Shown here in pieces: positions 42,874 to 45,787 of a stretch of DNA of 64,000 bases (the stretch's first letter is position 1; every line of letters starts with the position of its first letter). The DNA lies in NCBI RefSeq assembly GCF_016026235.1, contig NZ_CP065613.1; one strand, given 5' to 3'. A program made the position numbers. The stretch comes from Escherichia coli (GTDB lineage: Bacteria > Pseudomonadota > Gammaproteobacteria > Enterobacterales > Enterobacteriaceae).

Positions 42874-45787
42874 AATTCTTCTCTCAATAAAATATCCACA
42901 GCGACGCGATGCGTTATTGCTGGTTTTTGTTGTCTCTGACAAACTCTTGTAAACAGAGTTATCCACAGCCTCAGGCTGTAATCTTAATTTCAAAGAAACT
43001 TCGCACGGTGAATAGTATTTTTTTAACCTATTGATAGATAAGTTAAAAATTAAGATTTCGTTTTGTCGAGTCGATCACTTGACGATTTTATTCGTCTTGA
43101 ATTGCAATGCGTTTTTATTTTTATTCACAAGCTGTGGATGAATCAGGCGTCACGCGGTAACCCTTTTTCAATTACCCGAACCAGACGCTGTTTTTTCGGC
43201 AATTGCACTTCGACTATGCACGCATTTCGCCTCTCGATTTGCTGCGCCATCGCCCACGCTATGTGCTCATCAAGAAGTGGGTGCTCACCTTTGCGACTCT
43301 CCAGCGCCGCCAGAATCGTTTCATCCCAGGGCGCATTGCCTAATGCCACGGCGATATTACGCAGCCAGCGCAGGTGACCTATACGGCGAATCGCCGAACC
43401 TTCCGTGACTTTTAAAAACTTCTCTTCGCTCCAGGCGAATAACTCAATGAGTTCCGGTGCGTGTAGCGGCTTACGCGGGCTGAAATCGTCTTCTGTAGTG
43501 AGTTGTGAATAGCGATTCCACGGGCAGATAAGCTGGCAGTCATCGCAACCGTAAATACGGTTTCCCATTAACGGTCGCAACTCTTCCGGGATCGCCCCTT
43601 CCAGTTCGATGGTGAGATAAGAGATACAGCGGCGAGCATCGACGGTATATGGCTCGACGATGGCACCGGTCGGGCAAATCGTCATACAGGCCACGCATTT
43701 GCCGCATCCTTCCTCGACTGGTTGATCCACGGGCAGCGGAATATCGACCAGCAATTCGCCTAAAAAGAAGAACGAACCGGCCTCGCGATTGAGGATAAGT
43801 GAGTGCTTACCTGTCCAGCCGAGCCCAGCTTTTTCAGCTAACGGGCGCTCGAGAATAGGCGCAGAATCGACAAACGGTCTAAAATTCAGCGAAACACAAT
43901 GTTGCTGAATCATCTCGCCCAGCTTTTTGAGTCGGTTGCGCAGAAGTTTGTGATAGTCACGGCCCAGCGCATAACGGCTAACATAGCCGAGTTTGGGGTT
44001 TTTCAGCGTGCTGGCAAATGCGGCGTTAGCAGGAAGGTAATTCATCCGCACGCTGATCACGCGCAGCGTACCGGGCAATAACTCATGAGGGCGAGCGCGC
44101 AGCATACCGTGACGTGCCATCCAGTCCATTTCGCCGTGGTATTGTTTGTCCAGCCATGCTTGCAGTTTGGGCTCGGACTCGCTGAGATCGGTATCGGTAA
44201 TACCTACCTGCTGAAAGCCCAGTTCCAGCCCCCACTGTTTAATTTTTTGCGCTAACTGATTGAGATCGAGGGGCTCTGACATGACGGACCATACAATGAA
44301 GAAAAACCCCGTAAGTATACCACACACCGTCTGGTACGCCGACGATATCCGCCGCGGAGAACGCGAGGCGGCAGATGTGCTGGGGCTCACACTCTATGAG
44401 CTGATGCTTCGCGCTGGCGAGGCCGCATTCCAGGTGTGTCGTTCGGCGTATCCTGACGCCCGCCACTGGCTGGTGCTGTGCGGTCATGGTAATAACGGCG
44501 GCGATGGCTACGTGGTCGCGCGACTGGCCAAAGCGGTCGGCATTGAGGTCACGTTGTTGGCCCAGGAGAGCGACAAACCGTTGCCGGAAGAGGCCGCGCT
44601 GGCACGCGAAGCATGGTTAAACGCGGGTGGCGAGATCCATGCTTCGAATATTGTCTGGCCCGAATCGGTAGATCTGATTGTTGATGCGCTGCTCGGTACC
44701 GGTTTGCGGCAAGCGCCCCGCGAATCCATTAGCCAGTTAATCGACCACGCTAATTCCCATCCTGCGCCGATTGTGGCGGTTGATATCCCTTCCGGCCTGC
44801 TGGCTGAAACTGGCGCTACGCCAGGCGCGGTGATCAACGCCGATCACACCATCACTTTTATTGCGCTGAAACCAGGCTTGCTCACTGGAAAAGCGCGGGA
44901 TGTTACCGGACAACTGCATTTTGACTCACTGGGGCTGGATAGTTGGCTGGCAGGTCAGGAGACGAAAATTCAGCGGTTTTCGGCAGAACAACTTTCTCAC
45001 TGGCTAAAACCGCGTCGCCCGACTTCGCATAAAGGCGATCACGGGCGGCTGGTAATTATCGGTGGCGATCACGGCACGGCGGGGGCTATTCGTATGACGG
45101 GGGAAGCGGCGCTGCGTGCTGGTGCTGGTTTAGTCCGAGTACTGACCCGCAGTGAAAACATTGCGCCGCTGCTGACTGCACGACCGGAATTGATGGTGCA
45201 TGAACTGACGATGGACTCTCTTACCGAAAGCCTGGAATGGGCCGATGTGGTGGTGATTGGTCCCGGTCTGGGCCAGCAAGAGTGGGGGAAAAAAGCCCTG
45301 CAAAAAGTTGAGAATTTTCGCAAACCGATGTTGTGGGATGCCGATGCATTGAACCTGCTGGCAATCAATCCCGATAAGCGTCACAATCGCGTGATCACGC
45401 CGCATCCTGGCGAGGCCGCACGGTTGTTAGGCTGTTCCGTCGCTGAAATTGAAAGTGACCGCTTACATTGCGCCCAACGTCTGGTACAACGTTATGGCGG
45501 CGTAGCGGTGCTGAAAGGTGCCGGAACCGTGGTCGCCGCCCATCCTGACGCTTTAGGCATTATTGATGCCGGAAATGCAGGCATGGCGAGCGGCGGCATG
45601 GGCGATGTGCTCTCTGGTATTATTGGCGCATTGCTTGGGCAAAAACTGTCGCCGTATGATGCAGCCTGTGCAGGCTGTGTCGCGCACGGTGCGGCAGCTG
45701 ACGTACTGGCGGCGCGTTTTGGAACGCGCGGGATGCTGGCAACCGATCTCTTTTCCACGCTACAGCGTATTGTTAACCCGGAAGTGA

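What the first reader, a model, noticed from the sequence alone, without database searches (positions are those of the whole stretch)
42885..43145. Cluster of DnaA boxes with an IHF-consensus site between glyY and queG (datA-like locus)
Within about 260 bp of non-coding DNA there are four 9-mers matching the DnaA box TTATNCACA with 0-1 mismatch, in both orientations, and one match to the IHF consensus WATCAANNNNTTR between them. This architecture and position fit the DnaA-titration/DnaA-ATP hydrolysis locus datA described in E. coli. It is a chromosome-replication control element that gene-centred annotation would miss, and its box spacing can be read directly here.
Basis: partly seen in the sequence, partly recalled or inferred. 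Interest (0 to 1): 0.5.

Follow-up and report, generated by a model that had tools for sequence, protein, structure and literature searches.

The report
The known E. coli datA locus
This non-coding stretch is datA, the well-studied E. coli site where the replication initiator DnaA and the DNA-bending protein IHF assemble to switch DnaA off after replication starts. It is real and functional, but already described in detail.

Summary
Window 42885-43145 holds four DnaA boxes (42892+, 42959+, 43121+, 43133-) and one IHF consensus site (43024-43036, minus strand). They lie between glyY and the 3' end of queG. The combined architecture appeared in 0 of 1742 dinucleotide shuffles.

This is not a datA-like locus: it is datA itself. 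The window is E. coli chromosome, and the interval differs from MG1655 datA by one spacer SNP. The IHF site equals the published datA IBS. Published mutagenic primers place box 1, box 2 and the IBS exactly here. A published DnaA ChIP-seq peak (enrichment 213, against 218 at oriC) centres on window 42955.

Box 7 to box 3 spans 183 bp, the published minimal datA length.

The published mechanism is IHF-looped ATP-DnaA oligomers that hydrolyse DnaA-bound ATP (DDAH), plus some titration. Novelty: already known. Interest: low.

One side lead: a scan for the box-IHF-box geometry found datA orthologues across Enterobacterales. It also found compact elements with a DARS-type three-box core and datA-like spacing in Betaproteobacteria and Xanthomonadales. 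I found no description of these in the papers I could read.

The parts
42575..42873 (+). glyV-glyX-glyY tRNA-Gly(GCC) operon. Read-through transcription from its promoter crosses datA.
   Evidence: ARAGORN and Rfam. Gene names from the MG1655 annotation. Role of read-through from PMC10950094.
42885..42933 (+). glyVXY intrinsic terminator/attenuator hairpin plus T-run. It overlaps box 1.
   Evidence: RNA fold -14.3 kcal/mol, z = -2.8. The delter primers of PMC10950094 delete from 42892 onward. The paper states that the terminator overlaps DnaA box 1.
42892..42900 (+). DnaA box 1 (ATATCCACA, 1 mismatch). Dispensable for DDAH.
   Evidence: Assignment from PMC10950094.
42947..42955 (+). DnaA box 7 (TTGTAAACA, 2 mismatches). 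Low affinity, essential, head-to-tail with box 2 at a 3-nt gap.
   Evidence: 2-mismatch scan. [quoted passage not shown] Double box cTTGTAAACAgagTTATCCACAg at the datA ChIP-seq peak. The 3' half and spacer (ACAGA) are invariant in 28 Enterobacterales sequences.
42959..42967 (+). DnaA box 2 (TTATCCACA, consensus). Essential.
   Evidence: The subDnaAbox2 primers replace exactly this 9-mer.
43024..43036 (-). IHF-binding site (IBS), TATCAATAGGTTA. It lies 56 nt from box 2 and 84 nt from box 3.
   Evidence: Identical to the published MG1655 datA IBS. The ChdatAsubIBS primer mutates this site.
43058..43058 (.). Only difference from MG1655 inside datA: T here, C in K-12. It is in the IBS-box 3 spacer.
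   Evidence: Pairwise alignment. The K-12 base also appears in the ChdatAsubIBS primer.
43121..43129 (+). DnaA box 3 (TTATTCACA, consensus). Essential, same orientation as boxes 7 and 2.
   Evidence: Order 1-2-IBS-3 and the shared orientation of the essential boxes come from PMC4585315 and PMC5742627. Box 7 start to box 3 end is 183 bp, the published minimal datA length.
43133..43141 (-). DnaA box 4 (TCATCCACA, 1 mismatch). Inverted, 3 nt after box 3. Stimulatory, not essential.
   Evidence: [quoted passage not shown] 42947-43141 is 195 bp.
43107..43160 (+). yjeV, an annotated 17-codon ORF overlapping boxes 3 and 4 and the queG 3' end. Uncharacterised.
   Evidence: RefSeq annotation mapped from L001 and MG1655.
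43143..44282 (-). queG (epoxyqueuosine reductase), convergent with glyVXY. Its stop codon abuts box 4.
   Evidence: Annotation and ORF list.

Best explanation
Window 42885-43145 is the chromosomal locus datA of E. coli (94.7 min; MG1655 about 4,392,670-4,392,930).

Published mechanism, inferred to apply here because the sequence is near-identical:
1. ATP-DnaA occupies the high-affinity boxes 2 and 3, and cooperatively occupies the adjacent low-affinity box 7. Box 4 assists.
2. After initiation, IHF binds the single IBS and bends the DNA sharply.
3. The bend brings the box 7/2-bound and box 3(/4)-bound DnaA together into a head-to-tail oligomer.
4. In that oligomer DnaA-bound ATP is hydrolysed. 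This needs Arg285, Arg281 and sensor-2 Arg334.
5. ADP-DnaA is released and the site turns over catalytically. [quoted passage not shown]

Direct titration of DnaA by the boxes adds a smaller effect.

Timing comes from several sources:
- transient post-initiation IHF binding;
- negative supercoiling;
- early duplication of the locus, which lies near oriC;
- read-through transcription from the upstream glyVXY promoter, which keeps IHF off before initiation and is attenuated by the terminator and box 2-bound DnaA.

Shown here: identity, anatomy, spacing and conservation. Taken from the literature: binding, hydrolysis and timing.
For: Identity:
- E. coli synteny.
- One spacer SNP against MG1655.
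- IBS equals the published sequence.
- Published primers define box 1/terminator, box 2 and the IBS at these bases.
- 42947-43129 is 183 bp and 42947-43141 is 195 bp. These match the published minimal datA of 183 bp and about 200 bp.

Occupancy:
- The DnaA ChIP-seq peak 'datA' at MG1655 4,392,740 equals window 42955. Enrichment is 213, against 218 at oriC. The double box is TTGTAAACA-gag-TTATCCACA.
- Cell-cycle-specific IHF binding by ChAP-qPCR.

Mechanism: reviews and primary papers.

Constraint:
- The interval is single-copy in 5425 of 5426 complete E. coli genomes.
- 27 other Enterobacterales species, in 14 named genera plus one unnamed metagenome-assembled genome, keep box 2-IBS at 55-58 nt and IBS-box 3 at 82-86 nt. 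In most it sits beside a detectable queG (23 of 27 loci) and/or downstream of tRNA-Gly(GCC) (17 of 27); several loci are too short to show both.
- ACAGA 5' of box 2 is invariant, although the scan did not require it.
- The architecture appeared in 0 of 1742 shuffles.
Against: - Nothing was measured in this strain. Function is transferred from K-12 by near-identity, and the T/C SNP at 43058 lies in a spacer whose length matters but whose sequence has not been tested.
- Genome-wide IHF GeF-seq did not substantially detect datA. The authors attribute this to transient binding.
- The physiological weight is modest. datA deletion is viable, raises ATP-DnaA only by a few percent, and strains lacking all four extrinsic regulators behave nearly normally (PMC11331064 abstract).
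- The primary papers that define boxes 7, 3 and 4 (Kasho 2013, 2017) could not be read. Those three assignments rest on secondary descriptions and on the ChIP-seq table.
Confidence: 0.95

Rival explanations
1. A passive titration sink: the box cluster only soaks up free DnaA after it is duplicated, with no catalytic role for IHF.
For: This was the original interpretation. Plasmids carrying datA titrate DnaA. Box 2 or IBS point mutants only reduce titration rather than abolish it. Deletions outside boxes 1-4 also reduce it. The DnaA ChIP signal is very strong.
Against: Four to six boxes cannot account for the apparent capacity. The datA-IHF complex stimulates ATP hydrolysis in vitro. Point mutations in box 2, box 7 or the IBS give the same phenotype as the full deletion. 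Strict conservation of the 55-58 and 82-86 nt spacings around an oriented IHF site is not needed for a sink.
Confidence: 0.04
2. Primarily a transcription element: DnaA and IHF act as roadblocks that terminate or attenuate the glyVXY tRNA transcript, or regulate a yjeV promoter. Replication control would be secondary.
For: The terminator hairpin overlaps box 1. [quoted passage not shown] DnaA acts as a regulator at many double boxes.
Against: No downstream gene needs regulating. queG is convergent and yjeV is an uncharacterised 17-codon ORF. Terminator deletion barely affects initiation timing, whereas IBS and box mutations do. The authors read transcription as an input that controls IHF occupancy, not as the output.
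Confidence: 0.03
3. A DnaA-reactivating (DARS-type) site that releases ADP from DnaA rather than hydrolysing ATP.
For: Boxes 3 and 4 are an inverted pair, and an IHF site lies nearby, as in DARS2.
Against: The DARS core geometry (box I, 5 nt, inverted box II, 3 nt, box III) is read directly from E. coli DARS1 and DARS2. It is absent here: boxes 3 and 4 are 3 nt apart and there is no third box in register (0 of 27 Enterobacterales datA loci fit the geometry). Published assays show hydrolysis, not exchange.
Confidence: 0.01
4. A chance cluster of AT-rich near-consensus 9-mers in an intergenic region.
For: Window-wide counts of boxes and IHF matches are at or below shuffle expectation. Four boxes within 260 bp occur in 4% of shuffles.
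Against: The joint architecture appeared in 0 of 1742 shuffles. The locus is conserved across Enterobacterales. There is experimental occupancy.
Confidence: 0.003

Closest known systems
[quoted passage not shown]
   Same: Everything tested: position, flanking genes, all boxes, the IBS, every spacing and 260 of 261 bases.
   Different: One spacer SNP (43058, T against C). This allele is 100% identical to that of O157:H7 strain TR01.
DARS2 of E. coli (rppH-mutH intergenic region, upstream of mutH)
   Same: A non-coding cluster of DnaA boxes whose activity depends on an oriented IHF site some 70-85 bp from a box cluster, on negative supercoiling, and on cell-cycle-timed IHF binding.
   Different: Opposite output: ADP release from ADP-DnaA. 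It has a three-box core with I-5-II-3-III geometry, needs Fis, and binds IHF before rather than after initiation.
Left half of oriC (R1-IBS-R5M and following boxes)
   Same: IHF bends DNA between DnaA boxes to promote a head-to-tail ATP-DnaA oligomer using the same DnaA residues.
   Different: The inter-box distance is shorter. HU can replace IHF. The outcome is DUE unwinding, not ATP hydrolysis, and no hydrolysis is observed at oriC.
DnaA-box clusters of Bacillus subtilis and Streptomyces coelicolor
   Same: Chromosomal box clusters that repress untimely initiation.
   Different: No IHF site and no shown hydrolysis. They are analogous, not homologous. I did not examine them here.

Membership tests
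datA (DDAH locus) | [quoted passage not shown] | tested here: met
   tRNA-Gly(GCC) x3 at 42575-42873. Annotation orn-glyVXY-yjeV-queG-nnr. Maps to MG1655 4.3927 Mb.
datA (DDAH locus) | [quoted passage not shown] | tested here: met
   TTATCCACA at 42959 (+) and TTATTCACA at 43121 (+). These are the only exact consensus boxes in the 64 kb. Box 2 is fixed by the published primers.
datA (DDAH locus) | A single IHF-binding site between boxes 2 and 3, with defined spacing | tested here: met
   TATCAATAGGTTA at 43024-43036 (-) equals the published IBS. Gaps are 56 and 84 nt, identical to MG1655. Orthologues have 55-58 and 82-86 nt.
datA (DDAH locus) | Low-affinity box 7 adjacent to box 2 (essential) | tested here: met
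   TTGTAAACA at 42947-42955, 3 nt from box 2. [quoted passage not shown] The primary paper that defines box 7 could not be read.
datA (DDAH locus) | Box 4 (stimulatory) and box 1 (dispensable) flanking the core | tested here: met
   Box 4 at 43133 (-) and box 1 at 42892 (+). Box 1 overlaps the terminator, as published.
datA (DDAH locus) | Strong DnaA occupancy in vivo | not testable with these tools
   Published for the near-identical (one spacer SNP) K-12 locus; the bound box 7-box 2 pair is identical: ChIP-seq enrichment 213 at 4,392,740. Not measured in this strain.
datA (DDAH locus) | IHF-dependent stimulation of DnaA-ATP hydrolysis and repression of untimely initiation | not testable with these tools
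   Published for K-12. Transferred here by sequence identity.
DARS (DnaA-reactivating sequence) | Core of three boxes: box I, 5 nt, inverted box II, 3 nt, box III | tested here: not met
   The geometry was read from E. coli DARS1 and DARS2. Boxes 3 and 4 here are 3 nt apart with no third box. 0 of 27 Enterobacterales datA loci fit.
oriC | An array of DnaA boxes next to an AT-rich unwinding element with 13-mers and dense GATC sites | tested here: not met
   Read directly from the sequence: there are no 13-mer repeats and no box array beyond those listed, and only one GATC in the interval (43073-43076). oriC maps about 467 kb away in MG1655.

The most novel reading that the evidence does not exclude
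The datA geometry may not be an enterobacterial peculiarity. That geometry is a DnaA box, about 57 bp, an oriented IHF site, about 84 bp, then a DnaA box pair. It may be one version of an older IHF-looped 'DnaA nucleotide switch' module.

The same order, orientation and spacing recur at non-orthologous intergenic sites:
- Oxalobacteraceae;
- Methylophilaceae (tatD-mtnA);
- other Burkholderiales and Neisseriales (hemE-priA);
- Xanthomonadales (upstream of argS).

In Oxalobacteraceae and Methylophilaceae (36 of 38 loci), and in a minority of the hemE-priA loci (4 of 16), the proximal boxes form a DARS-type III-3-II-5-I core. The Xanthomonadales loci (0 of 8) show only a direct box pair. Those core-bearing elements would be undescribed DARS2/datA hybrids. 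Their output (ATP hydrolysis or ADP release) is unknown.
Probability: 0.3. Interest if true: 0.55.

Novelty: already known. Interest (0 to 1): 0.1.

Why it matters
datA is one of the four non-coding loci (oriC, datA, DARS1, DARS2) that set the ATP/ADP cycle of DnaA, and so keep E. coli replication to once per cell cycle. None of the RefSeq records inspected carries a datA feature. For a genome scan, this is a good positive control: a tool-less reading of raw sequence recovered a real replication-control element with correct box coordinates. It adds nothing new biologically. The only forward-looking value is the side lead on related elements outside Enterobacterales, and the conserved unexplained motifs in the IBS-box 3 spacer.

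Tried and rejected
- **Primary papers.** Kasho and Katayama 2013, Kasho 2017 and Fujimitsu 2009 are not held. The box 7/3/4 assignments therefore rest on reviews, primer sequences and the ChIP-seq table.
- **Supplement of PMC4585315.** The datA alignment figure is an image. Only the IBS table was readable, and reading part 5 gave references only.
- **Literature searches.** Two searches for DARS or datA outside Gammaproteobacteria were too broad and returned nothing relevant.
- **Promoter in the IBS-box 3 spacer.** I considered that the conserved CACTTGAC...TTGAATTGCAA motifs form a sigma-70 promoter. I rejected this. The consensus scan finds none. The best manual -10 (TGCAAT) lacks A at position 2. 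The -10-equivalent is not conserved in Serratia or Photorhabdus.
- **Hairpins at 42965-42979 and 43063-43085.** The scan flagged them as terminator-like. Their arms are not conserved or compensated in E. albertii or the second Escherichia species.
- **oriC reading of the betaproteobacterial hits.** I rejected this. The elements are compact (about 200 bp, four boxes), have no flanking box array, and have non-origin neighbours. Only the Firmicutes hits sit upstream of dnaA-dnaN, and those have scattered spacings.
- **Rfam.** Only the three tRNAs, plus a sub-threshold YrlA hit caused by tRNA-like sequence.
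Full report
**1.

A one-mismatch scan for TTATNCACA returns four hits inside the interval:
- 42892 (+) ATATCCACA
- 42959 (+) TTATCCACA
- 43121 (+) TTATTCACA
- 43133 (-) TCATCCACA

The two perfect matches are the only perfect matches in the whole 64 kb. The IHF consensus WATCAANNNNTTR matches once between them, at 43024-43036 on the minus strand (TATCAATAGGTTA). That is one of four matches in the window.

Window-wide, neither motif is over-represented: 44 boxes against 49.9 expected, and 4 IHF sites against 2.8. The signal is in the clustering:
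- Four boxes within 260 bp occurred in 12 of 300 dinucleotide shuffles.
- Two exact boxes within 170 bp occurred in 4 of 300.
- Four boxes plus an internal IHF site, or two exact boxes flanking an IHF site, occurred in 0 of 1742 shuffles.

The context is as stated. Three tRNA-Gly(GCC) genes end at 42873. The long minus-strand ORF ending at 43143 is queG.

**2. What it is**

The window is E. coli chromosome. The 1.4-kb region matches 5425 of 5426 complete genomes, with the order rsgA-orn-glyV-glyX-glyY-yjeV-queG-nnr.

Aligned to MG1655, window 42860-43180 is identical except for T/C at 43058 (spacer) and one base in queG. Window position equals NC_000913.3 position minus 4,349,785.

Published reagents pin the elements to these bases:
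- The MG1655 datA IHF site is printed as TATCAATAGGTTA (PMC4585315 Fig. S11).
- The subDnaAbox2 primers of PMC10950094 replace exactly 42959-42967.
- Primer ChdatAsubIBS mutates 43027-43033.
- The delter primers delete from 42892. The authors state that this removes DnaA box 1, which overlaps the glyVXY terminator.
- I confirmed a terminator-type hairpin plus T-run at 42885-42933 (-14.3 kcal/mol, z = -2.8).

**3.

Minimal datA needs boxes 2, 3 and 7 plus the IBS. Box 4 only stimulates and box 1 is dispensable.

[quoted passage not shown] A two-mismatch scan finds TTGTAAACA at 42947-42955, in the same orientation and 3 nt upstream of box 2.

A DnaA ChIP-seq study lists exactly this pair, cTTGTAAACAgagTTATCCACAg, under its datA peak at 4,392,740. 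That is window 42955. Enrichment is 213, against 218 at oriC (PMC11317965). The paper's footnote says NC_000913.2, but its oriC coordinate shows that the numbers follow version .3.

The lengths also fit. Box 7 start to box 3 end is 183 bp, the published minimal length. Box 7 to box 4 is 195 bp, matching the 200-bp minimal datA.

The spacings read here are:

| From | To | Gap |
|---|---|---|
| glyY | box 1 | 18 nt |
| box 1 | box 7 | 46 nt |
| box 7 | box 2 | 3 nt |
| box 2 | IBS | 56 nt |
| IBS | box 3 | 84 nt |
| box 3 | box 4 | 3 nt |

**4. How it works (from the literature, applied here by near-identity)**

- ATP-DnaA binds boxes 2 and 3, and cooperatively binds box 7.
- IHF binds the IBS only after initiation and bends the DNA.
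- Box 2- and box 3-bound DnaA then meet in a head-to-tail oligomer.
- ATP is hydrolysed in a manner dependent on Arg285, Arg281 and Arg334.
- ADP-DnaA leaves and the site recycles (DDAH).
- HU cannot replace IHF. The box-IBS spacings matter.
- Titration by the boxes contributes as well.
- Timing depends on negative supercoiling, on early duplication near oriC, and on read-through transcription from the glyVXY promoter. That transcription keeps IHF off before initiation and is blocked at the IBS once IHF binds.
- An additional factor for IHF release is still unidentified.

The physiological effect is modest. The deletion is viable and raises ATP-DnaA by a few percent. Strains lacking all extrinsic regulators can still behave nearly normally (abstract of PMC11331064).

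This is weak. One genome-wide IHF study did not substantially detect datA, and its authors attribute that to transient binding. ChAP-qPCR does show post-initiation binding.

**5. Conservation**

The 261-bp interval is single-copy in 5425 of 5426 complete E. coli genomes. It is at least 95% identical in all but three, and 100% identical to O157:H7 strain TR01. It is never annotated as a feature.

I scanned 100,044 species-representative genomes for TTATNCACA-N46-66-YAANNNNTTGATW-N74-94-TTATNCACA.

Twenty-seven hits are Enterobacterales: Escherichia, Enterobacter, Cedecea, Pantoea, Tatumella, Serratia, Rahnella, Rouxiella, Hafnia, Edwardsiella, Morganella, Providencia, Photorhabdus and Xenorhabdus, plus one unnamed Enterobacteriaceae metagenome-assembled genome. 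In most, the element lies beside a detectable queG (23 of 27) and/or downstream of tRNA-Gly(GCC) (17 of 27); several loci are too short to show both. Their gaps are 55-58 and 82-86 nt, although 46-66 and 74-94 were allowed.

[quoted passage not shown] It does not force the following, which are also conserved:
- an invariant ACAGA immediately 5' of box 2, which is the 3' half of box 7 plus the spacer;
- a T5ATT tract before box 3;
- CACTTGc and TTGAnnnnCAA motifs in the IBS-box 3 spacer.

Box 4 is kept only in the Escherichia, Enterobacter, Cedecea and Pantoea group.

**6. Side lead**

Most remaining hits are not random. They fall into clade-specific syntenic groups in intergenic DNA:
- Oxalobacteraceae;
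- Methylophilaceae, between tatD and mtnA;
- several Burkholderiales and Neisseriales lineages, between hemE and priA;
- Xanthomonadales, upstream of argS.

Their spacing is equally tight: 56-59 nt, and 82-86 nt (or 92-94 nt when the first box of a tandem pair is degenerate).

In Oxalobacteraceae and Methylophilaceae, 36 of 38 loci end in box, 3 nt, box, 5 nt, inverted box. In the hemE-priA group 4 of 16 do, and in the Xanthomonadales group 0 of 8. This is exactly the III-3-II-5-I geometry I read from E. coli DARS1 and DARS2. In DARS2 the IHF site has the same orientation, but sits 74 nt from box III.

The elements are compact (about 200 bp, four boxes) and lack origin features. The Firmicutes hits lie upstream of dnaA-dnaN with scattered spacing, so they are probably oriC box clusters matched by chance.

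The papers I could read report DARS2 conservation only in E. coli-related gammaproteobacteria at the orthologous position. One review mentions beta- or gammaproteobacteria.

I cannot tell whether these elements hydrolyse ATP or release ADP. I also cannot tell whether they have been described in papers not held here.

**7. Verdict**

- Novelty: already known.
- Interest is low, apart from its value as a positive control for the scan and the side lead above.

Noticed in passing
Loci L003-L122, e.g. L026 9201-9400 (Massilia sp. H-1), L062 (Methylophilus), L043 (Bordetella), L008 (Rhodanobacter): Outside Enterobacterales, compact intergenic elements share datA's order, orientation and spacing: box, 56-59 nt, IHF site, 82-86 nt, box. 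In Oxalobacteraceae and Methylophilaceae (36 of 38 loci) and 4 of 16 hemE-priA loci they end in a DARS-type three-box core (III-3-II-5-I); the eight Xanthomonadales loci do not. They sit in clade-specific, non-orthologous positions: hemE-priA, tatD-mtnA, upstream of argS, and variable in Oxalobacteraceae. They are not oriC-like. I found no description of them in the papers I could read.
   Followed up: partly
window 43073-43120: The IBS-box 3 spacer carries motifs conserved across Enterobacterales that the scan did not require: GATCACTTGac, cTTGAattgCAA and a T5ATT tract abutting box 3. They do not form a conserved promoter or a compensated hairpin. They might be low-affinity DnaA contacts or the site of the unidentified factor proposed to control IHF release.
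   Followed up: partly
window 42951-42958: ACAGA (the 3' half of box 7 plus two spacer bases) directly 5' of box 2 is invariant in all 28 aligned Enterobacterales sequences, while the 5' half of box 7 varies freely. Constraint therefore falls on the CACA-proximal half of the low-affinity box and on the 3-nt spacing.
   Followed up: partly
window 43058: This is the only difference from K-12 inside datA (T against C). The 261-bp allele is 100% identical to that of E. coli O157:H7 strain TR01, which suggests the window is from an O157-like lineage rather than K-12.
   Followed up: partly
window 42965-42979 and 43063-43085: Two small hairpins were flagged as terminator-like. One shares its stem with the last three bases of box 2. 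The other has a GATC in its loop. Neither is conserved or compensated in E. albertii or the second Escherichia species, so they are probably incidental.
   Followed up: partly
window 43107-43160: yjeV is an annotated 17-codon ORF (MRFYFYSQAVDESGVTR) lying over boxes 3 and 4 and overlapping the queG 3' end by 18 nt. RefSeq calls it a hypothetical protein. I did not assess whether it is translated.
   Followed up: no
window 43504-43512 (-) CTATTCACA and 43790-43798 (-) TTATCCTCA, inside queG: Further one-mismatch DnaA boxes lie downstream of the core. One of them is probably the historical datA box 5 or the 'BoxN' of PMC5835720. I could not determine which from the texts available.
   Followed up: no
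search result (E. coli genomes): Two matches to the datA interval lie on records typed as plasmids. One complete genome lacks the interval. Strain P276M matches only 82% of it, with no annotated feature beneath. These could be natural datA variants or assembly quirks.
   Followed up: no
window 42712-42850: A sub-threshold Rfam hit to YrlA (Y RNA-like; 40 bits against a gathering score of 69) spans glyX-glyY. It is almost certainly caused by the tRNA-like module of that family.
   Followed up: no
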